IMG/VR virus record: IMGVR_UViG_3300022602_002120
Span: 96,001-160,000 of that record
DNA from: a virus
Length of the DNA: 64,000 nt
Reading direction: 5' to 3' (one strand)
Each line of letters starts with the position of its first letter. Position 1 is the first letter of the stretch. Positions 2 through 22,919 of the stretch are shown in pieces. A program made the position numbers and the translations under genes. The notes beneath the pieces are model-generated. The model did no database searches. It was not told where the DNA came from and saw only the letters and a program-made list of their open reading frames with translations.

Positions 2-577
2 GGTCTAAGTTGCTGGACTAAAGAATTTGTCTATGCAATGAAAACGCATGAAGCCACTGACGGTGATAGTAAGAATGATGTAGAGTTTTGTTTTTACCCT
101 AACTATTGGGCCATGGCAGATTGTTATAGTACAACTTACCCAAATCAAACACCATTTCAAGCATGGAGAGCAGGCTTTAGAGAAGGTGTTAAGATGTGTT
201 TAGATCGAGGCACTAAGCCTAGCCTACAAGAGTTTGAAAGTAAAGTGCATCATCGCAACTATGATCATTTGTGTATTTGGCAAACAGTAGGAGCAGATGT
301 GGAGCATGGTTTTTGGGCAATATATGGCGCACGCTTGGGCACATGTTTAACAATGCTAGAAGATTGGGATTATCGTAAGGTGCAAGATTTTGATGAACTG
401 TCTTTGTTGTGGGAAAAATATAAAGATCCTCAGCCTGGAACGAGTACAGAATACGGCATGCGCTTACGCCAACGTCTAGGCTTGCCTATTGTAGACATGG
501 ATGTAGAACAGAGTCGTTTCTTCAAACATCATTATAAGAGTAATTTCCGTAATCGTGGAATAATGGAGAGAGAATGA
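2..577 (+). CDS. GT-A-like glycosyltransferase family protein, 5'-partial
   Basis: Frame is open from base 2 (GLSCWTKEFVYAM...). YSTTYPNQTPFQAWRAGFREGVKM parallels HYNTTPELTWRTAFREVLKL in 19189..20505. Confidence 0.5.
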   Translation, partial: GLSCWTKEFVYAMKTHEATDGDSKNDVEFCFYPNYWAMADCYSTTYPNQTPFQAWRAGFREGVKMCLDRGTKPSLQEFESKVHHRNYDHLCIWQTVGADVEHGFWAIYGARLGTCLTMLEDWDYRKVQDFDELSLLWEKYKDPQPGTSTEYGMRLRQRLGLPIVDMDVEQSRFFKHHYKSNFRNRGIMERE

Positions 578-1428
578 AATTACTCAATGACTCTTTAACT
601 AACTATTTTGATTTTAAATTTAACATGGATTCTGCGGGGAATCAGGTAAGTTGGTGCCCTTATAATTTTGTGGACAATAATAAAAAGAACCTTGTAATCA
701 CCATTGGTGATTCTTGGACCTGGGGCGCTGATATATGTGATGGCGATGCTACAGAACAAAGACTTAAGGATGTATTTGGAGCAATTATAGCAAATGAACT
801 TTCAGCTGATTTTTTAAATTTAGGGCAAAGCGGATCTTGTAATTTTCATATACTGCGACGACTAGAAGAACTCGACGCTATCATACCACTCCTCGAATAC
901 GACAAAATTTTAATAATTTGTGTGTACACAGAGGCATGCAGATCTATAGATAGCGAGTATGATAGAAAAATTGATTATATAAAGTGGTTTAAGAATAATA
1001 ATTTTCAAGATATATTAAAATATCACAATGGTCTATTTCAAGAAACTATTGTTGATCTAGAAAAGAAGCACCCGCATGTCAAATTAGTAATTGGCAATAA
1101 CTTTGTAGAACCAATTGGCATGGATACACGTTTAAATATATTGTCTAAAAATTGGGTAGAAGTATATAATGAACAAGCCATTCATGGCGAATATGTCAGA
1201 CCCTGTTATGTAATGAGCCATTGGGTTTTTGACAAAATTAGAGATTTTATTATTTTGATGTACCCTGATATTGACCGTGTTGAATTTAATAATTGGATGA
1301 TAGGGCTGATAGAAACAGCAAAAGACAGAAAAGAATTTACAATAAATCCAACATATTTTAAAGGTATAAGCCATCCTCTTAAGCTAGGACACAAAATATG
1401 GGCAAATTATATTCTTGAGAATTTATAA
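574..1428 (+). CDS. SGNH/GDSL-fold hydrolase or acyltransferase-like protein
   Basis: IGDSWTWG, NLGQSGSCN and a C-terminal SHP..GH. Confidence 0.65.
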   Translation: MKLLNDSLTNYFDFKFNMDSAGNQVSWCPYNFVDNNKKNLVITIGDSWTWGADICDGDATEQRLKDVFGAIIANELSADFLNLGQSGSCNFHILRRLEELDAIIPLLEYDKILIICVYTEACRSIDSEYDRKIDYIKWFKNNNFQDILKYHNGLFQETIVDLEKKHPHVKLVIGNNFVEPIGMDTRLNILSKNWVEVYNEQAIHGEYVRPCYVMSHWVFDKIRDFIILMYPDIDRVEFNNWMIGLIETAKDRKEFTINPTYFKGISHPLKLGHKIWANYILENL

Positions 1429-2396
1429 TGAAATATACATTAGAACTTGAGAATGATATATTATGGAATATTATTCCATTGGTTGCTTTTTTAAAAAATA
1501 ACGAAGGCAAAGATATTGAATTAACCGTAAATCAAGAATCTCATTGCCTACGGTTTTGTCGAGTGTATGAACTATTAGATATATTTGAGTTTAACTCTGT
1601 GACAATTTTTACCCGTAACGCATTAGAATATCATGACAAGTATAGAATTATGAATAATAATTGTTCTTGTTCTTGGAATTATTGGTTAGATAACGGAGCA
1701 ACCTACTTTAATCAAAAAACAGATTATAGATGGAACGGAAATAAATTATTTGGATGCTTTTATGGAAGACCGACAGCTGCCAGACTAGGCATAGCAAGTC
1801 ATTTATATAAAGAATATGTTAATAAATCTTTATTGTGTATAAAATTTAAAAATATTAACGAAGATGACCGAAAATTATTTGAGTTAGAACGGTTATATTC
1901 TTGGCACCCAGAAATGTTGCATCTATTATCTAATTTAATTGATAATAATATTAATCAATATTACAATTTTCCAGCATATAACTATGCCAGCGGAGATTAT
2001 GATTTTAATCATCCATTAAACGAGTTATATAGTGATATTTTTGTTGATATAGTAGTCGAAGCACATAATTTAGGTAATAGCTTTTATCCGACAGAAAAAA
2101 TAGCTAGAGCTATATTATGTAAGAAACCGTTTATTGTAATGGCTACAAAAAATTATTTGTATTATTTAAAACAAATAGGGTTTAAAACATTTACTGACTT
2201 GTGGGATGAAAATTACGATTTTCTCTATGGAAAAGATAGATACTATGCTATAATACAATTAATTGACAAATTAGCATCGATGAGTCAAAACGAAATACAA
2301 CAATTACATGAAAAAAGTCAGGATATAGTTGAACATAACTATAATTTATTAACTTCACTTTCATTTAGTAAACTTATAGTGAGAAAGCATGACTAA
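1428..2396 (+). CDS. GT10-like (TEK motif) putative glycosyltransferase
   Basis: DIVVEA...FYPTEKIARAILCKKPF...GFKTF..LWDENYD; AT-rich. Confidence 0.5.
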   Translation: MKYTLELENDILWNIIPLVAFLKNNEGKDIELTVNQESHCLRFCRVYELLDIFEFNSVTIFTRNALEYHDKYRIMNNNCSCSWNYWLDNGATYFNQKTDYRWNGNKLFGCFYGRPTAARLGIASHLYKEYVNKSLLCIKFKNINEDDRKLFELERLYSWHPEMLHLLSNLIDNNINQYYNFPAYNYASGDYDFNHPLNELYSDIFVDIVVEAHNLGNSFYPTEKIARAILCKKPFIVMATKNYLYYLKQIGFKTFTDLWDENYDFLYGKDRYYAIIQLIDKLASMSQNEIQQLHEKSQDIVEHNYNLLTSLSFSKLIVRKHD

Positions 2397-3801
2397 ATCA
2401 AAATTTATGAGCGCAGCAGAAGAAATGAAAGACAAACTAGGTCCTAGTCTTTGCTTGGCTAAATGGCAACAGGTAAGCCTACACCTACCAACAGGACTTA
2501 ACAATAGCTGTTACCATCCCCCATTACATGAGATTGATGCGGCACCTTTAGTGTTTCATCCTAGTGCCTTACATAACACAGCATATAAGAAAGAACAGCG
2601 TAAGAAAATGCTAGAGGGCACTCGTCCTAAAGAGTGTAACTACTGCTGGACCATGGAAGATGCTGGACACTTAAGTGATCGTCACTATCGTAGTGGTGAA
2701 CCCTGGGCGGCAGAACATTATGACACAATTAAAGACCTACCCTGGGATGCTGACGTTACTCCTAGTTATGTAGAAGTAAACTTCAGTCACGGCTGTAATC
2801 TAGCTTGCTCTTACTGTAGCCCACAGTTTAGTACAGAATGGCAGAAAGATATTGATCGTTGGGGTGCTTATCCTACAAGCAAACCTCATAATGCGCCTGA
2901 ACACTTCCAAGGTCGACGCAAACCTATTCCAGTTAAAGATGATAATCCTTATGTAGATGCGTTTTGGTCTTGGTGGCCTGAACTGTATCCTAAACTAAAA
3001 CATTTCCGTATGACAGGTGGTGAACCTCTAATGGACAAGAACACGCATCGTGTGTTCGACTATATCCTAGCGGCACCTAAGAGCGACTTACACGTAGATG
3101 TTACAAGTAACTTTAGCGTAGAGCCAGAACTGTTTAACAAGTATATAGACAAAGTTAAGCAGTTATGTGAAGGCACACGCATTGAACACTTCATGCAGTA
3201 TGTAAGCCTTGACACTGGTATTCCAGAACATGCTAGTTATATTCGTCGTGGCTTAAATCCTAGTAGGGTAGTTGACTATACTACTCGTTTCTTAGAAGAA
3301 ATTCCAGGACGCAATAGCCTAACGTTTATTATTACCATGAACAATCTTAGCATTTTAGGCCTAAAACGCTTGTTAGAAGAAATCTTGTTTTTGCGTAAAC
3401 AATATAGTTCAACTTATCAACGTGTTTGGTTCGATACTCCTGTGCTACGTACACCTAGTTGGCAGAGTCTACAAATACTTCCAGAAAGCTACACTGTGAT
3501 ATTAGCTGATGTAGTCAAGTATATGAAACAGAATCGATTAGACGAAAACAGTGATCGTTTTGATGGTTTCAAAGACTATGAAATACAACGCATGGAACGT
3601 GACCTAGATTGGATGAAGAAAGGCAAGAAACTCAGCGACAAGTATCTACATGAACAACGTGCTGACTTTTACCGTTTCTTCAATGAATATGACAAACGTC
3701 GTGGTGCCACTACCAAGGATGCCCGTGATGAAACATTCTTAGATGTGTTTCCAGAAATGAAAGAATTTTGGATGGAGTGCAAATATCATGCCGAAAATTA
3801 A
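2389..3801 (+). CDS. Radical SAM protein with N-terminal twitch domain
   Basis: CLAKW...SCYHP...CNYCW, then CNLACSYC and MTGGEPL. Confidence 0.9.
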   Translation: MTKSKFMSAAEEMKDKLGPSLCLAKWQQVSLHLPTGLNNSCYHPPLHEIDAAPLVFHPSALHNTAYKKEQRKKMLEGTRPKECNYCWTMEDAGHLSDRHYRSGEPWAAEHYDTIKDLPWDADVTPSYVEVNFSHGCNLACSYCSPQFSTEWQKDIDRWGAYPTSKPHNAPEHFQGRRKPIPVKDDNPYVDAFWSWWPELYPKLKHFRMTGGEPLMDKNTHRVFDYILAAPKSDLHVDVTSNFSVEPELFNKYIDKVKQLCEGTRIEHFMQYVSLDTGIPEHASYIRRGLNPSRVVDYTTRFLEEIPGRNSLTFIITMNNLSILGLKRLLEEILFLRKQYSSTYQRVWFDTPVLRTPSWQSLQILPESYTVILADVVKYMKQNRLDENSDRFDGFKDYEIQRMERDLDWMKKGKKLSDKYLHEQRADFYRFFNEYDKRRGATTKDARDETFLDVFPEMKEFWMECKYHAEN

Positions 3802-4861
3802 TCTGCATACCTTTAATAATCTTCAAGATATAAAATTTTTTGATATTTGTTATAATGTCGCAAATATTGTGCCACACGATGAAATTCATGAGGTGCTCAG
3901 ATGTGATAATCTCAATTATCCTATACTTAATAAAGTAAAAATTATGCAAAATCTTACTCCTATTAGACAATACCTACGCCAAAGTACGAGTAATAAATTA
4001 ATTGTAATTGATTACTTAGAGGGGAATAACTCTATTATGTCGTGGCTAGGTCAGGAAAGAATTGCAGAATATGTAAGATCTAATCAATTGATTATTATAT
4101 CATCGGGGGAATTTGAAAATGGTATTTTTTTAAATTTAGATTTTTTTCTAGGACATATACACAGTACTTATAACCAAGCAATTGCATTAAATACATTTGA
4201 CAAAATTTTTAATCAACTTAATAAACCTTATAAATTTTTATGTTTAAATAAAGCAAAAAGACCTCACCGGGTAGAATTATTAGAATTATTAAAAAATTTA
4301 AATCTATTAGACACCGCACTTTGGAGTGCATTATATGATAATCAGACTATTCCGATGGAATACAACGACTATTTTAATGAGCGAAAGAAAGAAACTACCA
4401 TCAATCAAACTAACCACGATAATCCCTGGATAGATGGTCTTTTAGTTCCGGATCTATATATCGATACATATTTTTCTGTTGTCACTGAGACAAATTTTGA
4501 AATTCCAAGGTGCTATCGTACAGAAAAAATATATAAACCACTATTGATAGGACATCCATTTATTGCGGTGTCGGGATATCATTTTTATCAAGGGTTACAT
4601 AAGTTAGGGTTTAAAACTTTTGGTCATCTAATAGACGAGAGCTTTGATGATATTTTAAATAATAATGATCGATTAGTTAGAATAGCAAACACTATTAACA
4701 ATTTATGTAACAGCAATCTAGTAGAATTTTTAAAAGAAGCAAAACCTATATGTGAATATAATAGAAACTTATACTTTGAATTATTGGGGACAGATCCTTT
4801 AAGAAAATACAATTCTTTAATCAATTTTTTCAATGAACTAATAAATGCCGAAAATACATAA
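3788..4861 (+). CDS. GT10-like (TEK motif) putative glycosyltransferase
   Basis: YFSVVTET...RTEKIYKPLLIGHPF...GFKTF..LIDESFD; AT-rich. Confidence 0.5.
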   Translation: MPKINLHTFNNLQDIKFFDICYNVANIVPHDEIHEVLRCDNLNYPILNKVKIMQNLTPIRQYLRQSTSNKLIVIDYLEGNNSIMSWLGQERIAEYVRSNQLIIISSGEFENGIFLNLDFFLGHIHSTYNQAIALNTFDKIFNQLNKPYKFLCLNKAKRPHRVELLELLKNLNLLDTALWSALYDNQTIPMEYNDYFNERKKETTINQTNHDNPWIDGLLVPDLYIDTYFSVVTETNFEIPRCYRTEKIYKPLLIGHPFIAVSGYHFYQGLHKLGFKTFGHLIDESFDDILNNNDRLVRIANTINNLCNSNLVEFLKEAKPICEYNRNLYFELLGTDPLRKYNSLINFFNELINAENT

Positions 4862-6224
4862 CGAAACAGACGTACAATACAAACGCAGAGTAATTGACAT
4901 CAAGAGTGCTAGTTTCTGTGCGGCTAAATGGTATAATGCCACTATATGGTTAGGTAGCGGACAAACTACTAGTTGTCATCATCCCTTACCACATCAAATT
5001 GATGTTAACGCGGCCTTGATTAATCCTAGTGCTATTCATAATACACCACAAAAGAAAGAACAACGTCGCCAAATGCAGATAGGCGAGCGTCCTGGTGGTT
5101 GCGAATACTGCTGGAAGATAGAAGACATGTATAAAGACTCTGGGTTATTTAATGGAGTTGATGTACCTGTGCCAATCAGTGACCGTGTGTATAAAACAGT
5201 AATATATAGTGATGAGGATTTAGATCTTGCCTATAATACCCCCGCAGAACATGATGTCAACTTACAGACTCTCGAAATTGCTTTTGATCGCACTTGCCAG
5301 TTTGCCTGTAGCTACTGTAATCCTGCTTTCAGCACTAGCTGGGTACGTGACATTAAACAAAACGGACCTTATGTCAATCTTGTCAGTGATGGTAGGAATC
5401 ACTTTACCCACGTTCATGACAGTAGCCAATTATATAAGCCCACAGAAGTAAATCCCTATGTCGAAGCATTTTTTAAGTGGTGGGAATCAGATCTACACAA
5501 GACATTAAAAGAATTACGTATCACAGGTGGCGAGCCCCTGATGTCGGGTCACACTTGGAAATTAATCGATTGGTTCAGAGAGAATCGCGGTAAGAGCTCT
5601 ACCCGATTGGCTATTAACAGTAACCTAGGATTTGAACAAGATAAATTGGAGCGATTATTAGATGCTACAGAAGGTATTGAACTTGATTTGTACACCAGCA
5701 ATGAAAGCATTGGTAGACACGCAATTTATATACGTGATGGCCTGGATTGGAATCAATGGGCTAGCAATGTTAGTTATCTATTGGATAGTAAAAGACTGCG
5801 CGGCCTACACGTCATGTGTACCATCAATGCCCTATGCTTATTAAGCCTAACAGAATTCCTATGGTCAGTTGTTAAACTTAAACAGAAGTATGGCAAGGAT
5901 TCAATTAACTTCAGTCTAAACATCTTACGCTTTCCTAGCTTCCAAAGTCCACTAATCTTACCATTGGCTATGCGTCAAGAGTTTGCTAATGAATTGAGAA
6001 GATTTGGCGATGCAACCAATGAACAGCTTCATGAATATGAGTTCAACCAATTACAACGATTAATTGAATACTTAAACAATGTAGATAGTCCGCACAGTGG
6101 AGCATTGTCACGTGAAGTATTACAACGTGACTTTAAGCACTTTTATCAGCAATACGATGAACGCCGAGGTAAAGACTTTAAATATACATTTCCACAACTA
6201 GCAGAATGGTATGACACACTATGA
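4845..6224 (+). CDS. Radical SAM protein with N-terminal twitch domain
   Basis: CAAKW...SCHHP...CEYCW, CQFACSYC and ITGGEPL. Confidence 0.9.
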   Translation: MPKIHNETDVQYKRRVIDIKSASFCAAKWYNATIWLGSGQTTSCHHPLPHQIDVNAALINPSAIHNTPQKKEQRRQMQIGERPGGCEYCWKIEDMYKDSGLFNGVDVPVPISDRVYKTVIYSDEDLDLAYNTPAEHDVNLQTLEIAFDRTCQFACSYCNPAFSTSWVRDIKQNGPYVNLVSDGRNHFTHVHDSSQLYKPTEVNPYVEAFFKWWESDLHKTLKELRITGGEPLMSGHTWKLIDWFRENRGKSSTRLAINSNLGFEQDKLERLLDATEGIELDLYTSNESIGRHAIYIRDGLDWNQWASNVSYLLDSKRLRGLHVMCTINALCLLSLTEFLWSVVKLKQKYGKDSINFSLNILRFPSFQSPLILPLAMRQEFANELRRFGDATNEQLHEYEFNQLQRLIEYLNNVDSPHSGALSREVLQRDFKHFYQQYDERRGKDFKYTFPQLAEWYDTL

Positions 6225-6886
6225 CAATATTAGCGTTTGGATGTTCAGTAACACACGGTGCAGAATTAGTGCATCCAAATCAGCACGAAGATAATGTCAA
6301 ATACAGCTATCCTAATTTAGTAGCCGAAACCTTAGGAGTTGAGTGTAAGAACTTAGCCGTATGTGGTGCCAGCAACGAAGATATTTTTCACAAAACACTC
6401 AATGTATTAAAAGTTACCAAACCTGATATAACCGCGGTTATTGTGGGATGGACTAGCGATGTCAGGGAATATTGGCGAGCAGATGGCAGGGAATGGTTTT
6501 TTATACCTAGTTGGTGTGCAACTAAGCAAATTGGCTCAGACCTAGAATACTTTAAAGATTATACTAGTAAAGATATTAACCTACACCCAAGGATATGTGC
6601 TGACAAAGAAGAATATTTAGAACCGTTAGCCGTAATGTACGACTATTTAATACGTTATAAATTTGATCAAGAAGAATACAAGTATAAGAAGTATAATTAT
6701 ATATCAAGCATTAGAGATTATTGTCAACTACACAGTATTAAATTAATTGAAACTTGTTGTTTAAATCCTACACCAGAAATAATGAATTTAGACGATATCG
6801 GCACTTGGCGCCAAGGATTGGGTCATCCTACAAAAACAGACCATGAACAAATAGCACAGCAGATACTATTAAAATATGAGCGATAA
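6221..6886 (+). CDS. SGNH-fold protein
   Basis: FGCSVTHG, NLAVCGASN and GHPT. Confidence 0.6.
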   Translation: MTILAFGCSVTHGAELVHPNQHEDNVKYSYPNLVAETLGVECKNLAVCGASNEDIFHKTLNVLKVTKPDITAVIVGWTSDVREYWRADGREWFFIPSWCATKQIGSDLEYFKDYTSKDINLHPRICADKEEYLEPLAVMYDYLIRYKFDQEEYKYKKYNYISSIRDYCQLHSIKLIETCCLNPTPEIMNLDDIGTWRQGLGHPTKTDHEQIAQQILLKYER

Positions 6887-13959: not shown

Positions 13960-14026
13960 ACTAGAAATAGCATACCGCAAGAAGCTTAAAGAGCTTCGCA
14001 AAAGAGATCCTTTTATTTACAAATAA
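13925..14026 (+). CDS. 33-aa cationic peptide MNWLKNLINRVKLEIAYRKKLKELRKRDPFIYK (not in ORF track)
   Basis: Hand-translated; its TAA overlaps the next ATG (TAATG) and it fills the only gap in the operon. Confidence 0.75.
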   Translation: MNWLKNLINRVKLEIAYRKKLKELRKRDPFIYK

Positions 14027-15443: not shown

Positions 15444-16093
15444 TTAATAATATACTAGCCATTGGCGATAGTTATACCTATGGATCGGAACTTGAAAATC
15501 CAGGGCGTGATTCTTGGCCGATGCAATTGGCAATTAAGTTAAACAGCTATGTAACTAACTTAGGTATGCCTAGTAGTAGTAATGATAGAATCTTCAGATT
15601 GGCAATTGAACACACACTTGAATTACAATATGATTTAGTAATTTGCGCCTGGACTGAAGTGTCTAGACTAGATTTATGGGCTAATGACCGGGAGTTTCAA
15701 GTAACATCAGCTAGTGTTGATTATCATGCTAAACAGTATCCTTGGATTAAAGAATATTATGCTAGACACTATGATGACAGACATAGTACTAAAACTTGGT
15801 TAACCAGAGTGTTAGCACTACAAGAATATTTTAAAAATAAAGGTCAGCGATACATCTTTGCTAACATGCAACCTAACAATGAGTATCGCGAACATTATAC
15901 AAAATTAGGCCTAACTAAATTTATAGACCAAATTGATACTGATAATTATTTAGGTTGGCCGGAAGGCGAAGGTATGCACGCTTGGATAGGTGATGCAGAA
16001 ATTGGGTCATGTGGCCATCCACTTGAGCTTGGACATAAACGTATAGCGGAAAAGTACTATGAACATATTAGGAATATCGGCTGGCTTTCATGA
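15440..16093 (+). CDS. SGNH-fold protein
   Basis: IGDSYTYGSEL, NLGMPSSSN and GHPLELGH; GTG start. Confidence 0.65.
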   Translation: MINNILAIGDSYTYGSELENPGRDSWPMQLAIKLNSYVTNLGMPSSSNDRIFRLAIEHTLELQYDLVICAWTEVSRLDLWANDREFQVTSASVDYHAKQYPWIKEYYARHYDDRHSTKTWLTRVLALQEYFKNKGQRYIFANMQPNNEYREHYTKLGLTKFIDQIDTDNYLGWPEGEGMHAWIGDAEIGSCGHPLELGHKRIAEKYYEHIRNIGWLS

Positions 16094-17555
16094 TGCCGCT
16101 GTTACATTAATCGACGAACAAGGCAAGATCTTGTTCGCAGGACATGCTGAACGTTACAGCAAGATTAAACATGACAGTGTATTAAATGTCCCTTTGATCA
16201 GAGATGCGTTGCGATATGGTAGTATAGATCAGATTGCCTACTATGAACGTCCATGGGTTAAAAAGACTCGTCAACTATATGCAGGTCAATGGAGTGAACT
16301 TAAAACTCCGTGGACTGTTGCAGGTATATTAAAAGCTCAATTACCCAAGTTACATTTACATAAATTACCAATTAAGTCGTATAATCATCACTTATCACAT
16401 GCGGCGGCAGGATTTCAAACAAGCTCATTTACAGATGCCACTGTAGTGGTTATTGATGCTATCGGTGAGTGGGATACTATTAGTATTTGGCATGCGTATT
16501 TTGATGACCACGGCAACGCTAAGTATCAAAAACTTTGGGGACAACAATATCCACATAGTATTGGACTAATGTATTCAGCATTTACCAAGTATGTGGGATT
16601 AAAACCCATGGATGAAGAATACATTTTAATGGGCATGGCTGGTTGGGGTAAACAGATCAGATGGGATGAAATAGAACAGCTTAAAGATAGTATATTAGGT
16701 GATGAAGGTAATTTTACATTCAAACATAACTTCCATCTAGGATTACCTGGTAAGTTACCTGTAGATTGGTCTGATGAAAACATAGCATTTGCAGCACAGT
16801 ATATAGCAGAAGATTTAATTGCCAGCGTAATGATGAAAGCAAGTAAATTAGGCTATAGTGAAAATTTAGTATACTGTGGCGGTGTAGCACTTAATTGTAG
16901 TGCGAATAGAATATTAGGGGAATATTATGATAACATTTGGATTATGCCTAATCCTGGCGATGCTGGGTCTAGCCTTGGCGCGGCTGCAATGGCTTTGGGC
17001 AGAAGGTTGGTTTGGAAAGATGCTTTCCTTGGCTTTAACATTCCTGGTCGTTATCCTGTTAAAGATATCATTTCCGAGTTAACCACAAATAAAATTTGTG
17101 GCGTGGCGAGCGGGCGGGCTGAGTTTGGCCCGCGAGCCCTTGGTAACCGTAGTTTATTAGCGGACCCTAGAGGTCCAGACATTAAGGATCGAGTAAATGA
17201 AATCAAACGTAGACAAAAGTTTAGACCTTTTGCACCTGTTATACTTGAGGAACTGGTACACGAATATTTCGATATGCCTCCTGGTTGGGATCGTAGCCCT
17301 TATATGCAGGTCGTGGCTCGTTGCCTGCATCCTAACCAGTTTCCTGCTATTCTACATGTTGATGGTACATCTCGCGTGCAGACAGTACCAAAAGATGGCA
17401 GTGGAATCAGACAACTCTTAGAACAATGGTATACTTGGACAGGATGTCCTATGCTGCTTAACACCAGCTTAAATGTCAGAGGCGAACCAATGGTTAATAA
17501 TCGTAAAGATGCAGATCGGTTTGAAAGACTATATGGCATAAAGGTTATGTCGTGA
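16059..17555 (+). CDS. O-carbamoyltransferase (NodU/CmcH/TobZ family)
   Basis: GFHDAA, HHLSHAA, DAIGE, GGVALN, PGDAG, EFGPRALGNRS, RPFAP and LNTSLN. Confidence 0.92.
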   Translation: MNILGISAGFHDAAVTLIDEQGKILFAGHAERYSKIKHDSVLNVPLIRDALRYGSIDQIAYYERPWVKKTRQLYAGQWSELKTPWTVAGILKAQLPKLHLHKLPIKSYNHHLSHAAAGFQTSSFTDATVVVIDAIGEWDTISIWHAYFDDHGNAKYQKLWGQQYPHSIGLMYSAFTKYVGLKPMDEEYILMGMAGWGKQIRWDEIEQLKDSILGDEGNFTFKHNFHLGLPGKLPVDWSDENIAFAAQYIAEDLIASVMMKASKLGYSENLVYCGGVALNCSANRILGEYYDNIWIMPNPGDAGSSLGAAAMALGRRLVWKDAFLGFNIPGRYPVKDIISELTTNKICGVASGRAEFGPRALGNRSLLADPRGPDIKDRVNEIKRRQKFRPFAPVILEELVHEYFDMPPGWDRSPYMQVVARCLHPNQFPAILHVDGTSRVQTVPKDGSGIRQLLEQWYTWTGCPMLLNTSLNVRGEPMVNNRKDADRFERLYGIKVMS

Positions 17556-18337
17556 AAAACTATTGGGAATTAGGAGCAACATTAGATTTAGGAACCTATC
17601 CCCGTAATCAAGAGTTATCGTTTAGCCTAAGTGATCTAGACAATGAAGAACGTTTTAATTCTTTGCCGCCTGGCAATTGGTCTAAGGATAGTTTTACCTA
17701 CAAGTATAATAGCTGCGGATTTCGTAGCTGTGAATTTGATCTCGACGGAATAAATCCTGTAATACTTACATTAGGTTGTAGTCATACAGTAGGTGTGGGT
17801 GTGCCACAGCACAATAATTGGCCTGAACAATTTGGTAGTAGATATTTTCCTGAACATAAGGTATATAATGCTGGTCTGGGGGGTGCGGGGGCAGATACTA
17901 TTGCACGATTAGCAATTAACCTAATTCCTATTATTAAACCTAGTATAGTTGCAGTCTTATGGCCAAGTTTATATCGGTTTGAAACATATGAAAATGGTGC
18001 TGTGTTTAACGGCGCTTGGACTATGGAACAAGACAATCTACAGTACGAGGACAACACAGCATACAATAATCAGACTAAAAATAAAACAATTTTAGAGTTA
18101 CTACAGCAGGTTTATCAATTTAAACTGTTAAGTATAGATTGGGATGACACTGTACAAAAAGTTTACAATACAATTTCTTGGACTAAAGGCCGTGACGGTG
18201 CACACTTTGGTGTAGATTGGCATCAACAGATTGCTTATGATTTTAATTTACAATATTGTAATCCTGATGACTTTGTGTTAAAATATACAAATCCAAAAGT
18301 CTACTGGGACAAATACAAGGATAGGAAAATTAAATGA
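17552..18337 (+). CDS. SGNH-fold protein
   Basis: LGCSHTVG, NAGLGGAG and DGAHFG; N-terminal YKYNSCGFRS resembles 10359..11003. Confidence 0.6.
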   Translation: MKNYWELGATLDLGTYPRNQELSFSLSDLDNEERFNSLPPGNWSKDSFTYKYNSCGFRSCEFDLDGINPVILTLGCSHTVGVGVPQHNNWPEQFGSRYFPEHKVYNAGLGGAGADTIARLAINLIPIIKPSIVAVLWPSLYRFETYENGAVFNGAWTMEQDNLQYEDNTAYNNQTKNKTILELLQQVYQFKLLSIDWDDTVQKVYNTISWTKGRDGAHFGVDWHQQIAYDFNLQYCNPDDFVLKYTNPKVYWDKYKDRKIK

Positions 18338-18759
18338 AAATATTAGTTATGGGCCTACCAGGAAGTGGAAAATCAACCTTGGCCGAACCGTTGGCTAATC
18401 TATTAGGTGCTGTGTGGATCAATGCTGATAAAATTAGAGAACAATACAACGATTGGGATTTTACATCAGAGGGAAGACTGCGCCAAGCTCAACGCATGAA
18501 GTATCTAGCTGACGGGGTTGTATTAGCTGGTAAGATTGCTGTGGCTGATTTTGTCTGCCCAACTGAACAAGCACGTGAATATTTTGCTCCAGACTATACT
18601 GTTTGGATGGATACTATTCGCGAAGGCCGTTACGAAGATACTAACAAAATGTTTGAACCGCCAGCAGAATGTAACTATCATGTTAAAGAATGGTTTAGCG
18701 ACACTGATAAAGAATTAATGAAAGTGGTAATGAACTACATACAAAGAACTAGCAAATGA
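18334..18759 (+). CDS. Adenylyl-sulfate kinase-like P-loop kinase
   Basis: GLPGSGKSTLA, NADKIR, DFTSEGRLRQAQR and DFVCP; short version. Confidence 0.7.
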   Translation: MKILVMGLPGSGKSTLAEPLANLLGAVWINADKIREQYNDWDFTSEGRLRQAQRMKYLADGVVLAGKIAVADFVCPTEQAREYFAPDYTVWMDTIREGRYEDTNKMFEPPAECNYHVKEWFSDTDKELMKVVMNYIQRTSK

Positions 18760-19196
18760 AACCAAAATATAAACTAGCACACATGAAGGCCGCACATCTC
18801 TACGCTGAACTAAGCACAGCACGTAGATTAAAAGTGGGCGCACTTATTGTCAAAGACGATAGAATTATTAGTATCGGCTACAATGGTATGCCTAGTGGAT
18901 GGGATAACGATTGTGAGTACAAATACTACAGCATAGGTAATCCCAATGACTTTGAATTAAAAACTAAACCGGAGGTCCTACATGCTGAAACCAACGCTAT
19001 TGCGAAACTTGCTAGAAGCACTGACAGTGGTGATAATGCCACTTTATTTGTTACTCATAGTCCCTGCCTGGATTGCGCCAAACTTATTTACCAGTCCGGT
19101 ATCAGACAGGTCTACTACGCTACTGATTATCGCGATGATTCCGGGATACGTTTCCTTCATGATTCGGGTGTCACAGTGGAAAAAATAGATGTTTGA
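18756..19196 (+). CDS. dCMP deaminase
   Basis: VGALIV, GYNG, HAETNA and PCLDC. Confidence 0.92.
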   Translation: MKPKYKLAHMKAAHLYAELSTARRLKVGALIVKDDRIISIGYNGMPSGWDNDCEYKYYSIGNPNDFELKTKPEVLHAETNAIAKLARSTDSGDNATLFVTHSPCLDCAKLIYQSGIRQVYYATDYRDDSGIRFLHDSGVTVEKIDV

Positions 19197-20505
19197 TGTT
19201 TTTATAATGGACCTGGGCGGCAATGAAGACAATGTACAGAGTCTTGTACAGCGTTTTCCGCACGCTCGAGTGGTAAGATACTACGATAATCACTTAGCCA
19301 CGTTAAAACGCTGTATTTCACGTTGTAGAACACCTTATGCTTGGGTACTTGCTAGTGTTTGTGACTACAGTAACTTTGATTTTGACTACCGAGCTGTTCC
19401 GTGGGAAGCCTATCAACTACACTGTTGGCATAGTGATCACGAGAAGTTCGGCGACACCTTCCTGGTGAACGTAAGTGAATTTAATAAGCAACAGGATATT
19501 CCTTTACTGGAATGGTATAAGGAAGTTAATTGGCATTATCCGGGTGTACCTAGATTGCCTGTACCTGTTGTTACATACATCAGTGATGACCTAGTTGAGG
19601 TAGTCAAGGCTACTAAATTTGATACTCCATATGTCCTATTCAAACGTGACACGGACTCAACTGTAAACTTTGCGCCTATTTTATGGCGAGATCGAAGTGT
19701 ACATACCTTTAACAAGGCAAACAGTGTATCGTTAGTACCCCGTGAAATTTCCGCACATTTAAAGCATCAAATCTACGATTATCCACATATTTTGAAGCAA
19801 AAAGACTGGTTTTTAGGCGATAATAACCTCGATATTATCTACATCAGCAACGGAGAACCGCAGGCAGAACAGTGGTATGAACACTTATTATCAGTGGTAG
19901 CGGCTAGTGGTGCTACCAATTGGGTACGTAGAGTTAAAGATGTTAATGGACGTAGTGAGGCATATAAAGCTGCAGCTAATGCCAGTCAAACAGATTGGTT
20001 CTTTACTGTGTTTGCTAAATTAGAAGTAGTAGCAGACTTTGATTGGTCTTGGCAACCAGACTATCTACAAGAACCTAAACACTATATCTTTAACAGTCGT
20101 AATCCTGTTAATGGATTGGAATATGGACACATGGGCATTATTGCCTACAACAAGCAACTAGTACTTGATACAGATGAACATGGATTAGACTTTACTCTAA
20201 GCAAGCCACATGCTGTGGTCCCTGTATTAAGTGCTATTGCCCACTATAATACCACACCCGAACTAACATGGCGCACAGCATTCCGTGAAGTGTTAAAACT
20301 TGTAGATGATGTAGAAAAGACTGGAAGTATCGAAAGTCGTTATCGTTTAGATGTTTGGCTCAATGAAGGCGAGCATTGGAGCACGCAAGGTGCAACTGAT
20401 GCTGTTGAATACTACAATAATGTTGCTGGTGATATGGATAAACTCTTACTGAGTTTTGAGTGGGCTTGGTTGAAAGAATACTACTCTAAGAAGTATACTG
20501 TTTAA
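19189..20505 (+). CDS. Internally duplicated GT-A-like protein
   Basis: LDIIYISNGEP...RNPVNGLEYG; C-terminal half parallels the partial ORF 2..577. Confidence 0.5.
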   Translation: MFDVFIMDLGGNEDNVQSLVQRFPHARVVRYYDNHLATLKRCISRCRTPYAWVLASVCDYSNFDFDYRAVPWEAYQLHCWHSDHEKFGDTFLVNVSEFNKQQDIPLLEWYKEVNWHYPGVPRLPVPVVTYISDDLVEVVKATKFDTPYVLFKRDTDSTVNFAPILWRDRSVHTFNKANSVSLVPREISAHLKHQIYDYPHILKQKDWFLGDNNLDIIYISNGEPQAEQWYEHLLSVVAASGATNWVRRVKDVNGRSEAYKAAANASQTDWFFTVFAKLEVVADFDWSWQPDYLQEPKHYIFNSRNPVNGLEYGHMGIIAYNKQLVLDTDEHGLDFTLSKPHAVVPVLSAIAHYNTTPELTWRTAFREVLKLVDDVEKTGSIESRYRLDVWLNEGEHWSTQGATDAVEYYNNVAGDMDKLLLSFEWAWLKEYYSKKYTV

Positions 20506-21601
20506 TAGCATCAACTACAGCTTCAACTTCACTGTCTGACAGTTCTGGATAGATAGGCAAACTTAGGCAGGTGCGACTAAACTGTTCAGCACCTTCTAAC
20601 GCTGTGTAGTCAACTTCAAAGCCAAATGCCACATTAGATAAGTGTAAGGGTCTTTTGTAGGTAATCCTAGTTTCGATTCCTGCTTCTCCAAGGAATTGAT
20701 TCATACCATAACGTTCACGATGATGAATAACATACTTACTCCACGCATGTTCTACATTCATGTCTACACTAGGTATAGTTACATGTCCATCTAGTTCTTC
20801 TGTGTAGTATTCGGCGATTTCTTTCCTACGTTTTTGCCAAGCATCGAAGTATTTTAACTTAATCAGCATCTGTGAACAATCAACTTCTGACATCTTGCTG
20901 TTGGTACCTGAGTTGATATTGTCATTACCTTTGCCATTGTCGTGAAAGTCATTGACCTGTTCCCAGATCTCAGGATCGTCAGTGAGTATCATGCCACCCG
21001 ATCCATAGTTGTTTAGATTTTTTGTAGGGTCAAAGCTCAAGCAACTGATAGTGCCTAGCTTGCCACTTGGTACACCTTTCCAGTAGGCACCAAATGATTG
21101 TGCAGCATCTTCTATGATGGGAATATTATTCTCTGCCCACATCTGTCTATACATGGTTAATTTGTCATAGTCGATGATGTTACCAAATAAGTTAACATAC
21201 ATCACAGCGGCAATCTCATCATGATCCACTGGTATCTTATTTAGATCTATTAGACCGGTAATGGGATCTACATCACAGAACACAGGGTCAAAGCCTGATT
21301 CTATTACTACGTTGAGTGTAGCAATAAAACTCTGTGCTGGAATTAGTACTTTGTTACGAGTCTTATCGTGTATACAGGCCGCACGTAGACTAAAGATCAA
21401 GGCCTGTGTACAACTGCCTACTGCGCAGGCATACTTGCGTTCGGTCATTTTTTGAATAGTTTTTTCAAACAGAAAGGTATAGTCACCGTCAAGGACTTTT
21501 CCAGAAGAATATACATGATCTGTTGCATCAAGTATTTCTTCTTTGATACTAACGTATTGTCTATCTACGCCATAGAACGGGATTTTCGTTGTACCAGTCA
21601 T
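20486..21601 (-). CDS. DegT/DnrJ/EryC1/StrS PLP-dependent sugar aminotransferase
   Basis: EDAAQSFGA, SFDPTKNL and G.NSKMSE. Confidence 0.92.
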   Translation of the reverse strand: MTGTTKIPFYGVDRQYVSIKEEILDATDHVYSSGKVLDGDYTFLFEKTIQKMTERKYACAVGSCTQALIFSLRAACIHDKTRNKVLIPAQSFIATLNVVIESGFDPVFCDVDPITGLIDLNKIPVDHDEIAAVMYVNLFGNIIDYDKLTMYRQMWAENNIPIIEDAAQSFGAYWKGVPSGKLGTISCLSFDPTKNLNNYGSGGMILTDDPEIWEQVNDFHDNGKGNDNINSGTNSKMSEVDCSQMLIKLKYFDAWQKRRKEIAEYYTEELDGHVTIPSVDMNVEHAWSKYVIHHRERYGMNQFLGEAGIETRITYKRPLHLSNVAFGFEVDYTALEGAEQFSRTCLSLPIYPELSDSEVEAVVDAIKQYTS

Positions 21602-22517
21602 AATACTGTTTTAAGCCTTGTTCAAAGTCAATTTTAGGATCATAGCCTAGATCGTTGCGTGCCCGATCTATATTCAAACGTCCACGTTTAGGAAAACTAA
21701 GATCACGATCTAATAATTCTATAGTGCCCTGTCCTGCTACGCTAACAGCAAGTTCGGCAGCGTCCTTTAAGGTCCAAATGCGATCAGCGGAACGGGTAAT
21801 ATTATATGTATGGCCATTTGCAGCATCTAAGGTTGTAGCTAACACAATACCTTGAGCTGTGTCAGTGACATGTGTAAAGTCTAAGACTTCACTGCCACCT
21901 TTAACACGTAGAGTTTCACCACGCATGGCGGCTGTTAGGAATTTACTTACCACACGATCCTCTACATCACGTTCACCATATACAGCACTAGGGCGAACAA
22001 TAGTATAATTTAAATAACGACCATAGTCTTCTACTAGACGCTCGCCCATGAGTTTCATAATACCATATTGTCCTACTGGGCTAGGATTTTTATATTCGCT
22101 GGTATCTGATCCAAAGTCACCATAGACCATCGAACTTGAAACATAGACAAATTTTTCACAATGCTCACGTGCTATTTCTAATAGATTAGTTAGGCCATTA
22201 CACATAACATCTGTGGCTAGTCTAGGATCTTGTTCAACTACTTTCTGACGCGGAAAACTTGCTAGGTGTACAATAACATCAATTTCGTTATTAAGTACCA
22301 AGCTGTTAATTAGTGTTTGATCACGAATATCAACTTTGTATACTTCGCTAGTAATGCGTTTTTCACGTAGACTGTTTAGATATACTAGTTCACTGGTAGG
22401 AATAAAGCCATAGGTAGTAGCTGTATCAACTACAATACACTCATGTCCTTGTGCTTCTAGTAAGCGGACAACATTGTGCCCAATGAAGCCTAATCCACCA
22501 GTGACAAGATATTTCAT
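21561..22517 (-). CDS. NAD-dependent NDP-sugar epimerase/dehydratase
   Basis: TGGLGFIG, SSSMVYG, YGIMK (YxxxK) and DFTHVTD. Confidence 0.92.
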   Translation of the reverse strand: MKYLVTGGLGFIGHNVVRLLEAQGHECIVVDTATTYGFIPTSELVYLNSLREKRITSEVYKVDIRDQTLINSLVLNNEIDVIVHLASFPRQKVVEQDPRLATDVMCNGLTNLLEIAREHCEKFVYVSSSMVYGDFGSDTSEYKNPSPVGQYGIMKLMGERLVEDYGRYLNYTIVRPSAVYGERDVEDRVVSKFLTAAMRGETLRVKGGSEVLDFTHVTDTAQGIVLATTLDAANGHTYNITRSADRIWTLKDAAELAVSVAGQGTIELLDRDLSFPKRGRLNIDRARNDLGYDPKIDFEQGLKQYYDWYNENPVLWRR

Positions 22518-22676: not shown

Positions 22677-22919
22677 TTACTCTCCCCATTTTAATTTATA
22701 GTAGGTTAAATTTTTAGGTTCTAACCACGCATGTATTTTTACAGTATAACCATAACTGCTATAGCCACCTGGTACAATATCAAACATCATCTGCTGATAA
22801 CTATGTTCATGTAGCCATTGCCCTTTTTCAGTCTTTTCCCAATCTATAATAGGACCTGCGGCATAGATCTCAGGATCTTCTACATCACCTAGAGTAATCT
22901 TATGAACTAGTAACTTCAT
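22677..22919 (-). CDS. Small hypothetical protein (dispersed paralog family)
   Basis: C-terminal LEPKNLTYYKLKW. Confidence 0.75.
   Translation of the reverse strand: MKLLVHKITLGDVEDPEIYAAGPIIDWEKTEKGQWLHEHSYQQMMFDIVPGGYSSYGYTVKIHAWLEPKNLTYYKLKWGE

What the first reader, a model, noticed from the sequence alone, without database searches (positions are those of the whole stretch)
2..22517. A 20 kb or larger phage operon of radical SAM, SGNH, glycosyltransferase and carbamoyltransferase genes: candidate undescribed glycan-tailoring system
Seen: 23 + strand genes in a row with overlapping stops and starts and no promoter-sized gap. They comprise 5 twitch radical SAM, 8 SGNH, 3 GT10-like, 2 GT-A-like, a carbamoyltransferase, an APS-kinase-like gene, dCMP deaminase, one orphan and a peptide. 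The run converges on a DegT aminotransferase and an NDP-sugar epimerase. Known: radical SAM sugar dehydrogenases/epimerases (BtrN, NeoN), DegT-type aminotransferases, TobZ/NodU carbamoyltransferases and SGNH acyl-transfer enzymes are the parts list of aminoglycoside and complex-glycan tailoring. Inference: the phage builds a heavily modified aminosugar polymer. It could sit on virion proteins, on the host surface to exclude competing phages, or on DNA. I know of no characterised phage system of this size.
Basis: partly seen in the sequence, partly recalled or inferred. Interest (0 to 1): 0.9.

Follow-up and report, generated by a model that had tools for sequence, protein, structure and literature searches.

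The report
Jumbo-phage radical-SAM glycan-tailoring gene module
An uncultured, very common group of giant T4-like phages carries, right behind its tail-fibre genes, a tightly packed block of about 27 enzyme genes that most likely builds and decorates an unusual sugar chain, and nothing like it has been described.

Summary
Window 2-20505 carries 22 overlapping + strand ORFs and a 33-aa ORF. They comprise five N-terminal-twitch radical SAM enzymes (NCBIfam NF033640, all above cut-off), eight SGNH-like proteins, a three-member and a two-member unnamed family, a NodU/TobZ-type carbamoyltransferase, a P-loop kinase and a dCMP deaminase. The run converges on DegT and an SDR.

The run continues upstream. 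The window is part of a 189-kb fragment of a T4-like jumbo phage, and the enzymes follow fibre genes in a ~55-kb co-oriented block.

More than 120 IMG/VR contigs, up to 354 kb long, share the order fibre, u7-u10, g01, five rSAMs, g13, peptide, carbamoyltransferase. The SGNH and GT10-like genes are variable accessories.

The 33-aa peptide is the most conserved element. Its C-terminal core is D-P-[FY]-[ILV]-Y. Its constant partner is the carbamoyltransferase, also in clusters that lack rSAMs but hold Pfam-detected GT2/GT10/GT11/GT25, DegT and dehydratase genes. Rare bacterial homologues of the rSAMs lie in deoxysugar and polysaccharide clusters.

Best reading (about 0.45): a cytoplasmic glycan assembly and tailoring system, probably acting on virion fibres or on the peptide. 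Substrate and product remain inferred. Other first-stage notes of this scan cover the same stretch; no follow-up existed. No matching description was found in the paper library.

The parts
2..577 (+). g01 (3' part; the gene starts 316 nt upstream of the window, 297 aa): GT-A-like protein with an invariant DGD motif. Core gene.
   Evidence: AF2 model pLDDT 72. All 50 VIA rows are GT-A or nucleotidyltransferase folds, Z 5.7-7.5 over residues 1-145. Foldseek PDB and BFVD weak lists are dominated by GT-A enzymes. D65-G66-D67 is invariant in 14 orthologues. No Pfam hit.
574..1428 (+). g02: SGNH-like (accessory).
   Evidence: Lipase_GDSL_2 E 0.0029, below cut-off. Paralogue of g15-g17. Ser and His are invariant in the alignment.
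1428..2396 (+). g03: member of the g03/g05/g10 family (GT10-like motif; accessory).
   Evidence: Paralogy. The motif F.VV.ET...F.TEK..KPI aligns with the GT10 motif of a Bacteroidales GT10 (hhalign E 0.007, prob 5.6%). No Pfam or PDB sequence hit.
2389..3801 (+). g04: N-terminal-twitch radical SAM (core).
   Evidence: NF033640 289 bits, cut-off 170. CX3CX2C and four N-terminal Cys are invariant.
3788..4861 (+). g05: g03/g05/g10 family (accessory).
   Evidence: (Atlas lead to GT10 clusters at 0.80-0.81, a lead only).
4845..6224 (+). g06: N-terminal-twitch radical SAM (core). Its orthologue (51% id) sits in the peptide mini-cluster of RsoM2USA.
   Evidence: NF033640 286 bits.
6221..6886 (+). g07: SGNH-like (accessory).
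   Evidence: Lipase_GDSL E 0.0017.
6876..8192 (+). g08: N-terminal-twitch radical SAM (core).
   Evidence: NF033640 405 bits. SPASM hit at residues 43-106, before Radical_SAM at 152-311.
8182..9360 (+). g09: N-terminal-twitch radical SAM (core).
   Evidence: NF033640 342 bits.
9335..10369 (+). g10: g03/g05/g10 family (accessory).
10359..11003 (+). g11: SGNH-like, paralogue of g19 (accessory).
10990..12306 (+). g12: N-terminal-twitch radical SAM. Most conserved of the five (median 74% id).
   Evidence: NF033640 290 bits.
12230..13402 (+). g13: core protein of unknown function with a cyclophilin-like beta-barrel and a helical insertion (about residues 77-200). The true start is probably downstream of the listed GTG.
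   Evidence: AF2 pLDDT 81. No Foldseek PDB hit. VIA wide search gives cyclophilins at Z 8-9.1 with about 140 aligned residues. Atlas shape search returns Pro_isomerase and Cyclophil_like2 clusters. Present in 38 of 40 loci.
13399..13959 (+). g14: SGNH-like (accessory).
13925..14026 (+). 33-aa basic peptide with a conserved C-terminal D-P-[FY]-[ILV]-Y core. It is the most conserved element of the module and the constant partner of the g18-type carbamoyltransferase.
   Evidence: (393 synonymous vs 208 non-synonymous codon differences; SD AAGGAG).
14026..14664 (+). g15: SGNH/DUF6071.
   Evidence: DUF6071 32.7 bits, cut-off 27.
14652..15443 (+). g16: SGNH-like.
15440..16093 (+). g17: SGNH/DUF6071.
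   Evidence: DUF6071 47.9 bits.
16059..17555 (+). g18: NodU/CmcH/TobZ-type carbamoyltransferase (core).
   Evidence: Carbam_trans_N 123 bits and Carbam_trans_C 168 bits. phrog_1601.
17552..18337 (+). g19: SGNH-like.
18334..18759 (+). g20: small P-loop kinase (AAA_33 / APS-kinase-like). Present in about a quarter of loci.
18756..19196 (+). g21: dCMP deaminase. Variable and probably ordinary nucleotide metabolism.
19189..20505 (+). g22: its C-terminal half is a paralogue of the g01 GT-A-like domain.
   Evidence: BLASTP g01 9-182 vs g22 213-382, E 8e-15.
20486..21601 (-). DegT/DnrJ/EryC1 sugar aminotransferase (convergent).
   Evidence: PF01041 270 bits. Best NCBIfam matches are PseC-like and 4-amino-4,6-dideoxyhexose transaminases, all below equivalog cut-offs.
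21561..22517 (-). SDR NDP-sugar epimerase/dehydratase.
   Evidence: PF01370 146 bits. Best NCBIfam match is dTDP-glucose 4,6-dehydratase, 132 bits against a cut-off of 365.

Best explanation
This is a phage-encoded, cytoplasmic system that assembles and tailors a glycan.

Shown:
- The gene families.
- Their strict order and conservation in more than 100 related jumbo-phage contigs.
- The position directly behind fibre genes.
- The peptide-carbamoyltransferase pairing.
- The sugar-cluster context of homologues.

Inferred pathway:
1. The SDR and DegT pair makes an NDP-4-amino-4,6-dideoxyhexose.
2. GT-A-like proteins (u8, u9, g01, g22) and the GT10-like family transfer sugars to an acceptor made by the phage.
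3. The five distinct N-terminal-twitch radical SAM enzymes each carry out one radical step at unactivated sugar carbons. Candidate steps are oxidation, epimerisation, dehydration or C-C/C-methyl chemistry, as BtrN does on an aminocyclitol.
4. The carbamoyltransferase adds O-carbamoyl groups.
5. The lineage-variable SGNH enzymes add or remove O-acyl groups.

The most likely acceptor is a virion fibre protein encoded just upstream. The 33-aa peptide, through its conserved C-terminal Tyr, is the alternative acceptor or primer, or it is a subunit of the carbamoyltransferase.
For: (1) All five rSAMs are NF033640 members at 286-405 bits against a cut-off of 170. They form five separate orthologue groups kept in the same order in 40 loci.

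(2) The family is rare in bacteria: over cut-off in 1 of 151 Acidobacteriota, 3 of 401 Pseudomonadota and 0 of 14 controls. Where present, it lies in sugar clusters.
- An Acidobacteriota contig holds three copies among GT2, GT4, GT9-methyltransferase, YdjC and GT1 genes.
- Neighbours in five other loci include WbsX, RmlC, RmlD/epimerase (three times), TylF, NDP-hexose C-methyltransferase, Acyl_transf_3 (twice) and NTP_transf_3.

(3) The rSAM N-terminal domain aligns with the twitch domain of BtrN (E 0.0013).

(4) The g01 N-terminal 145 residues give only GT-A or nucleotidyltransferase folds, and a DGD motif is invariant. The g03 family carries a GT10-type TEK motif.

(5) DegT and an SDR dehydratase-like gene are adjacent here and in other loci whose flanks reach far enough.

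(6) The same peptide plus an orthologous carbamoyltransferase (53-54% id) lie in rSAM-free clusters with Pfam-detected GT2, GT25, GT11, GT10, DegT, epimerases/dehydratases and Methyltransf_14.

(7) No product has a transmembrane segment, and there is no flippase or polyprenyl-phosphate transferase, so the acceptor is cytoplasmic.

(8) In all loci, and in cultured RsoM2USA, the GT-A-like/rSAM part directly follows Ser/Thr/Gly/Asn-rich fibre genes on the same strand.
Against: - No glycan, donor or acceptor is demonstrated.
- No member of NF033640 has a known reaction.
- The GT10-like family has no Pfam or PDB sequence hit.
- The GT-A calls rest on Z below 8.
- No sugar nucleotidyltransferase was found in the 189-kb fragment, which is only 53% complete.
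- In RsoM2USA the peptide/CarbT/SGNH/rSAM part and the fibre-adjacent GT-A/rSAM part lie about 90 kb apart, so they may be two pathways.
- The extreme conservation of the peptide is not explained by a simple protein-glycosylation model.
- Co-transcription is not shown.
Confidence: 0.45

Rival explanations
1. Peptide-centred natural product. The 33-aa peptide is a ribosomal precursor or scaffold. Its C-terminal D-P-[FY]-[ILV]-Y is modified by rSAM enzymes and the carbamoyltransferase and then glycosylated, as mycofactocin is made from MftA by the rSAM MftC and glycosylated by MftF. The product would be a small glyco-peptide or cofactor-like molecule.
For: - The peptide is the most conserved gene: median 83% id against 36-74% for the enzymes.
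- It is a real coding gene with an SD and an excess of synonymous changes.
- 190 cluster representatives share a short length and a C-terminal core, with a variable or absent last residue.
- It always lies between the rSAM/g13 block and the carbamoyltransferase.
- g13, next to it, has a cyclophilin-like fold, and the peptide has an invariant Asp-Pro.
- Precedent: mycofactocin (PMC7491314).
Against: - The peptide-carbamoyltransferase pair also occurs in clusters with no radical SAM at all.
- Bacterial N_Twi_rSAM loci lack the peptide.
- Pfam finds no RRE/PqqD-like domain, protease or exporter.
- RsoM2USA keeps the peptide without g13.
Confidence: 0.22
2. Host-surface remodelling. The module alters LPS, capsule or S-layer glycans of the infected cell, for superinfection exclusion or to prevent trapping of progeny, in the way 'LPS genes' of T4-like cyanophages are usually read.
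For: - Carbamoyltransferases and GT genes are common auxiliary genes of marine T4-like phages: 126 phage records match g18.
- SGNH enzymes typically handle O-acetyl groups of surface polysaccharides (established knowledge of the family).
Against: - No membrane protein, flippase, polymerase or initiating transferase is present.
- The module is fixed behind fibre genes in a structural block, which is not an early or moron position.
Confidence: 0.12
3. DNA hypermodification. The sugars are placed on modified bases of the phage DNA, with dCMP deaminase, kinase, ThyA and DHFR as part of the same route.
For: - dCMP deaminase and a P-loop kinase end the run, and ThyA and DHFR follow on the other strand.
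- T4-like phages glycosylate DNA (reference list of PMC12619734: Pyle et al. 2024).
Against: - g20 is present in 11 of 40 loci, and g21 only in L019 of those 40 (also in several of the peptide-scan loci), so neither is core.
- No DNA-binding or base-flipping domain was found.
- Earlier first-stage notes, not tested here, place a DpdA-type DNA modification route elsewhere in this genome.
- The sister clusters are typical glycan clusters.
Confidence: 0.08
4. No single pathway. The run is a collection point for unrelated auxiliary genes that merely share a transcription direction.
For: - Accessory content (SGNH, GT10-like, kinase, deaminase) varies strongly between loci.
- The two halves are separate in RsoM2USA.
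Against: The core order u7-u10, g01, five rSAMs, g13, peptide, CarbT is kept in more than 100 contigs whose proteins have diverged to 50-60% identity.
Confidence: 0.08

Closest known systems
Virus-encoded glycosylation of virion proteins: mycobacteriophage capsid and tail-tube glycosylation (Freeman et al. 2023, PMC10527164, as cited in PMC12619734); Mimivirus fibril and chlorovirus capsid glycans (own knowledge)
   Same: - The virus carries its own glycosyltransferases and NDP-sugar enzymes (4,6-dehydratase plus aminotransferase).
- These lie next to structural genes.
- The machinery is cytoplasmic, with no membrane components.
   Different: - No radical SAM enzymes, no peptide-carbamoyltransferase pair and no SGNH array are known in those systems.
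- Here the glycan and its acceptor are unproven.
BtrN and other twitch/SPASM radical SAM enzymes of aminoglycoside and sugar tailoring (PDB 4M7T)
   Same: - CX3CX2C radical SAM core plus a Cys-rich auxiliary-cluster domain.
- That domain of the phage enzymes aligns with the BtrN twitch domain.
- Sugar-pathway gene context.
   Different: - The auxiliary domain is N-terminal, not C-terminal.
- Similarity is weak (E 0.0013).
- The family NF033640 has no characterised member.
- Five paralogues act in one module.
Ralstonia phage RsoM2USA (MG752970, cultured, 343.8 kb)
   Same: - Fibre-like gene, then u7, u8, u9, g01 (41% id), rSAM and a g01-like gene at 217-223 kb.
- SGNH, rSAM (51% id to g06), SGNH, an unannotated 36-aa peptide ending in DPFIYK, SGNH and carbamoyltransferase (46% id) at 123-129 kb.
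   Different: - Only two rSAMs were seen in the two regions examined.
- No g13.
- The two parts are about 90 kb apart.
- All genes are annotated hypothetical, and the published description does not mention them.
Mycofactocin pathway (MftA peptide, rSAM MftC, glycosyltransferase MftF; PMC7491314)
   Same: - Short peptide with a conserved C-terminal hydrophobic-Tyr end.
- Radical SAM enzymes with auxiliary clusters.
- Glycosyltransferases in one cluster.
   Different: - No MftB-type RRE, peptidase or flavoenzyme.
- The peptide occurs with the carbamoyltransferase even where rSAMs are absent.
'Nol-like carbamoyltransferase' auxiliary genes of T4-like cyanophages and pelagiphages, for example Pelagibacter phage Mosig
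   Same: - Same enzyme family (phrog_1601).
- Mosig has MoaA-annotated rSAM genes, a DegT-like aminotransferase, carbamoyltransferase, methyltransferase and epimerase in one run.
   Different: - Only 28-33% identical to g18.
- No peptide.
- No N_Twi_rSAM hits by BLASTP to the window's proteins.
- Function also unknown.

Membership tests
NCBIfam NF033640 (N_Twi_rSAM, twitch domain-containing radical SAM protein) | Whole-protein HMM score above the curated cut-off (170 bits). | tested here: met
   g04 289, g06 286, g08 405, g09 342, g12 290 bits.
NCBIfam NF033640 (N_Twi_rSAM) | CX3CX2C radical SAM cluster motif and GGE SAM-binding motif. | tested here: met
   C157, C161, C164 and G216-G217-E218-P219 are invariant in the five paralogues.
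NCBIfam NF033640 (N_Twi_rSAM) | Cys-rich twitch/SPASM-like domain placed N-terminal to the radical SAM core. | tested here: met
   Pfam SPASM at residues 43-106, 7-71 and 10-85, before Radical_SAM. C43, C62, C103 and C106 are invariant. Weak match to the BtrN twitch domain.
SGNH/GDSL hydrolase superfamily | Block I nucleophile Ser in G-D/C-S near the N-terminus, and block V catalytic His. | tested here: met
   Ser and His are invariant in all eight paralogues. The block III Asn is present in six of the eight.
SGNH/GDSL hydrolase superfamily | Pfam model above the gathering score. | tested here: inconclusive
   DUF6071 is above cut-off for g15 and g17 only. Lipase_GDSL and Lipase_GDSL_2 hits are all below cut-off.
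NodU/CmcH/TobZ carbamoyltransferases | Both Carbam_trans_N and Carbam_trans_C domains above cut-off. | tested here: met
   123 and 168 bits.
NodU equivalog (NF041651) | Score above the equivalog cut-off (1000 bits). | tested here: not met
   146 bits. The protein is a family member, not NodU itself.
Glycosyltransferase family 10 (PF00852), for g03/g05/g10 | Match to the family HMM. | tested here: not met
   None of 22 family members hits PF00852 at E up to 1. No PDB sequence hit.
Glycosyltransferase family 10, for g03/g05/g10 | C-terminal fucosyltransferase motif (hydrophobic-x-x-x-E-N/T ... TEK). | tested here: inconclusive
   The motif aligns in register with a genuine GT10 (hhalign E 0.007, prob 5.6%). 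Atlas lead at 0.80-0.81. Genuine GT10 genes occupy similar positions in sister clusters.
GT-A fold glycosyltransferases, for g01/g22 | Rossmann-like nucleotide-sugar-binding domain with a DXD motif after a central strand. | tested here: inconclusive
   All 50 VIA rows are GT-A or NTase folds, but Z is 5.7-7.5. Best Foldseek E is 0.066. DGD is invariant after strand 60-65.
DegT/DnrJ/EryC1 sugar aminotransferases | Family HMM above cut-off. | tested here: met
   270 bits against 19.8. No equivalog reached.
RiPP pathway with a radical SAM maturase | Precursor peptide gene in the cluster. | tested here: met
   Conserved 33-aa ORF.
RiPP pathway with a radical SAM maturase | Peptide and maturase co-occur obligatorily; a recognition element (RRE) is present. 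| tested here: not met
   The peptide occurs with the carbamoyltransferase in rSAM-free clusters. Pfam finds no PqqD/RRE.
Virion glycosylation systems of phages | Glycan covalently attached to a virion protein. | not testable with these tools
   Needs glycoproteomics of virions.

The most novel reading that the evidence does not exclude
The 33-aa peptide is a dedicated primer. A glycan is built on its conserved C-terminal Tyr (glycogenin-like priming), radical-SAM-tailored, carbamoylated and acylated. The resulting glycopeptide would be a new class of phage-made molecule. It might be incorporated into fibres or released at lysis. The peptide-carbamoyltransferase pair would be a widespread, unrecognised two-gene unit of viral glycan clusters.
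Probability: 0.15. Interest if true: 0.9.

Novelty: new variant of a known kind. Interest (0 to 1): 0.78.

Why it matters
- Self-encoded glycosylation is known for a few viruses. This module adds radical chemistry from an uncharacterised radical SAM family (five enzymes at once) and a strictly conserved micro-peptide. It occurs in a phage lineage with thousands of metagenomic relatives.
- If the product decorates fibres, it bears on host recognition, immune or defence shielding and the ecology of abundant aquatic jumbo phages.
- If the product is peptide-derived, it is a new natural-product class.
- The work gives a first functional context (sugar pathways) for NF033640.
- It names a cultured phage, RsoM2USA, in which the question can be tested.

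Tried and rejected
- Megablast of the region against 50,697 phage records gave no match.
- PHROGs has no family for g01, g03, g05, g10, g13, g17, g19 or g22.
- PDB profile searches for g13, g01, the g03 family, u8/u9 and the peptide gave nothing significant. The glycogenin hit for u8/u9 (E 1.4) is only a lead.
- Pfam on 22 g03-family and 24 u8/u9-family members gave no glycosyltransferase family.
- Foldseek PDB for g13 gave no match.
- Complex prediction with g06, g18 and the peptide returned no verdict: score 0.00 and controls not run.
It was repeated with g08 orthologues.
- tblastn of the peptide against phage records found nothing. The same search also failed to return the RsoM2USA copy, which a local tblastn and ORF listing do find, so this negative result carries no weight.
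- The peptide is not a classic amphipathic helix: its hydrophobic moment of 0.16 is not above shuffles. A membrane-active reading was therefore not pursued.
- The 'moraphage' lineage (PMC12619734) was considered and set aside. It is described as outside the T4 group and its text has no mention of radical SAM.
- Literature searches for the family name, for the gene combination and for RsoM2USA found no description of the module.

Full report
**What is there.** The window is bases 96001-160000 of a 188.8-kb IMG/VR virus record with an estimated completeness of 53%. The whole genome is therefore about 350 kb. Earlier first-stage notes on the genome list T4-type genes (gp55, gp47, gp46).

One search shows an uninterrupted + strand series of ORFs from position 2 to 20505. 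Every stop overlaps or abuts the next start. The series converges on a DegT aminotransferase and an SDR on the - strand. All-against-all BLASTP, Pfam and NCBIfam give these families:
- Five radical SAM paralogues: g04, g06, g08, g09, g12.
- Eight SGNH-like paralogues.
- A family of three: g03, g05, g10.
- A family of two: g01, g22.
- A two-domain carbamoyltransferase (g18), a small P-loop kinase (g20), a dCMP deaminase (g21) and an orphan (g13).
- A 33-aa ORF at 13925-14026.

**The run is longer than reported.** The first ORF starts 316 nt before the window. The co-oriented block begins about 34 kb upstream. It starts with very large Ser/Thr/Gly/Asn-rich proteins, one of about 4,570 aa, and includes proteins matching tail-fibre PHROGs and a Peptidase_G2 intramolecular chaperone domain. 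Five further genes follow (u6-u10). Of these, u6 is fibre-like in composition and u7-u10 are unnamed.

Sigma-70 promoter and terminator scans equal their shuffled controls. The T4 late motif is absent from the region. Co-transcription therefore rests on gene packing alone.

**Conservation.** A scan of IMG/VR with g08 returned 40 loci at 49-90% identity. Classifying their ORFs against the window's proteins shows one order throughout: fibre gene, u6, u7, u8, u9, u10, g01, g04, g06, g08, g09, g12, g13, then variable SGNH genes, g18, and in some loci g20, g22, DegT and SDR.
- The five rSAMs are five orthologue groups with median identities of 54-74%.
- The SGNH genes (0 to 8 per locus) and the g03 family (0 to about 5) come and go.
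- g21 is seen in one of the 40 loci and g20 in 11.
- More than 6,900 metagenomic proteins match g08 at E below 1e-10, on contigs up to 340 kb.

No deposited phage has the region at the DNA level.

**The radical SAM enzymes.** All five exceed the cut-off of NCBIfam NF033640 by a wide margin. The radical SAM motif, the GGEP motif and four N-terminal cysteines are invariant. The Pfam SPASM model matches before the radical SAM core. A profile of the five aligns this N-terminal part with the C-terminal twitch domain of BtrN (E 0.0013). I found no paper on the family.

The family is rare in bacteria. It is over cut-off in 1 of 151 Acidobacteriota, 3 of 401 Pseudomonadota and 0 of 14 control genomes.

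Where the family occurs in bacteria, the neighbours are sugar genes:
- An Acidobacteriota chromosome has three copies among GT2, GT4, a GT9-methyltransferase fusion, YdjC and GT1 genes.
- Neighbours in five further loci include WbsX, RmlC, RmlD-type reductases and epimerases, TylF, an NDP-hexose C-methyltransferase domain, two Acyl_transf_3 proteins and NTP_transf_3.

This is guilt by association. It is nevertheless the only functional context available, and it points to sugars.

**The unnamed proteins.**
- g01: the AlphaFold model (pLDDT 72) gives only GT-A or nucleotidyltransferase folds for residues 1-145 in an exhaustive structural search (Z 5.7-7.5). Weak Foldseek lists against PDB and BFVD are dominated by the same folds. 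A DGD motif after the central strand is invariant.
- g03/g05/g10: no Pfam or PDB sequence hit. The family carries a conserved ...ET...F.TEK..KPI motif that aligns in register with the hallmark motif of a genuine GT10 protein, and there is a weak Atlas lead.
- u8 and u9: paralogues with a DXD-like motif and only a non-significant glycogenin match.
- g13: modelled at pLDDT 81. No Foldseek hit. Two independent shape searches find a cyclophilin-like barrel split by a helical insertion (Z about 9; Atlas).
- SGNH-like proteins: all eight keep the nucleophile Ser and catalytic His.
- None of the products has a transmembrane segment.

**The peptide.** The 33-aa ORF has a Shine-Dalgarno sequence, and its stop overlaps the next start. 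Compared with its 33 other distinct copies in related loci it shows 393 synonymous against 208 non-synonymous codon differences. It is the most conserved gene of the module, with a median identity of 83%.

In the 80 loci fetched, wherever the flanks are visible (about 90% of them), its neighbours are g13 or an SGNH gene upstream and an SGNH gene or the carbamoyltransferase downstream.

A profile search of 1.84 billion cluster representatives found 190 clusters. Nearly all are 30-70 aa proteins ending in D-P-[FY]-[ILV]-Y, with a variable or missing last residue.

Two divergent copies were traced to their contigs:
- In one lineage the peptide sits 4 nt upstream of a carbamoyltransferase that is 53-54% identical to g18. 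That cluster has no radical SAM gene. It does have Pfam-detected GT2, GT25, GT11, GT10, DegT, epimerases/dehydratases and a sugar C-methyltransferase.
- In another lineage there are two peptide copies with rSAMs, a sugar nucleotidyltransferase and the carbamoyltransferase.

Carbamoyltransferases of cyanophages and pelagiphages (28-33% identity) have no such peptide. The constant partner of the peptide is thus the g18-type carbamoyltransferase inside glycan clusters, not the rSAMs. A complex prediction gave no verdict (see Tried and rejected).

**Cultured relatives.** Ralstonia phage RsoM2USA (343.8 kb) carries both halves in reduced form:
- A fibre-like gene followed by u7, u8, u9, a small ORF, g01 (41% id), one rSAM and a g01-like gene.
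- About 90 kb away: SGNH, an rSAM 51% identical to g06, SGNH, an unannotated 36-aa ORF ending in DPFIYK, SGNH and a carbamoyltransferase (46% id).

All of these are annotated hypothetical, and the paper on the phage does not mention them. Pelagibacter phage Mosig has an analogous but not homologous run of MoaA-annotated rSAMs, a DegT-like gene, a carbamoyltransferase, a methyltransferase and an epimerase.

**Interpretation.** The evidence best fits a cytoplasmic glycan assembly and tailoring system. The SDR and DegT would supply a 4-amino-4,6-dideoxyhexose. The GT-A-like and GT10-like proteins would transfer sugars. The five rSAMs would tailor them by radical chemistry. The carbamoyltransferase and the variable SGNH set would add or trim carbamoyl and acyl groups.

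The fixed position behind fibre genes, also in RsoM2USA, and the lack of any membrane component make virion fibres the most likely acceptor. The conserved peptide is the alternative acceptor or a carbamoyltransferase subunit.

All substrate assignments are inferences, and I give this reading about 0.45. The rivals are:
- A peptide-centred, mycofactocin-like product (PMC7491314), at about 0.22. It is weakened by the rSAM-free peptide clusters and the absence of an RRE.
- Host-surface remodelling (0.12).
- DNA hypermodification (0.08).
- A mere collection of unrelated genes (0.08).

**Novelty.** Virus-encoded glycosylation is a known kind of system. A module with five enzymes of an uncharacterised radical SAM family, a cyclophilin-like protein and a strictly conserved micro-peptide coupled to a carbamoyltransferase was not found in the literature searched. 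I therefore rate it a new variant of a known kind, of high interest. The question is directly testable in a cultured phage.

Noticed in passing
outside the window: G000:C1:5942-7189 (- strand), locus L066: A sixth NF033640 radical SAM gene (226 bits) lies about 90 kb from the module, among unidentified - strand genes.
   Followed up: partly
outside the window: L002:16469 to L001:10172 (+ strand): One open reading frame of about 4,570 aa, rich in Ser/Thr/Gly/Asn, heads the fibre block upstream of the module. It is preceded by ORFs of 1109, 690 and 1139 aa.
   Followed up: partly
window 1-64000 and L001: The T4 late-promoter motif TATAAATA is depleted. There are 2 copies in 64 kb against 10.4 expected, and 0 in the 20 kb upstream against 4.4 expected. 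If late promoters exist here, they use another motif.
   Followed up: no
L051:6046-18042 (MAG labelled Bacteriovoracaceae, 83.9-kb contig, GC 42%): Eight N_Twi_rSAM genes in a row, the largest array seen. It is unclear whether the contig is bacterial or a binned phage.
   Followed up: no
L045-L049: Contigs carrying the whole phage module are binned into MAGs labelled Legionellales, Polynucleobacter, Porticoccaceae and Haliscomenobacter. These are probably mis-binned phage DNA. They could also be weak host hints.
   Followed up: no
L044:17168-17278 (RsoM2USA record 125892-126002, complementary strand): An unannotated 36-aa ORF in a deposited, cultured phage genome is the homologue of the conserved peptide.
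   Followed up: yes
L191:9001-9114 and 13188-13301: One metagenomic cluster carries two diverged copies of the peptide, one before and one directly after the carbamoyltransferase.
   Followed up: partly
L003 (Vibrio phage K566, 161-179 kb): Five distant N-twitch-like radical SAM genes (21-25% id) lie in a cultured schizo-T4-like vibriophage, near NAD-salvage genes and a PagP-annotated gene. None of the window's other families is present there.
   Followed up: no
window 22677-23878 (- strand): Three small ORFs (80, 210 and 109 aa) between the SDR and ThyA have no family in Pfam. The 210- and 109-aa ORFs also have none in NCBIfam.
   Followed up: no
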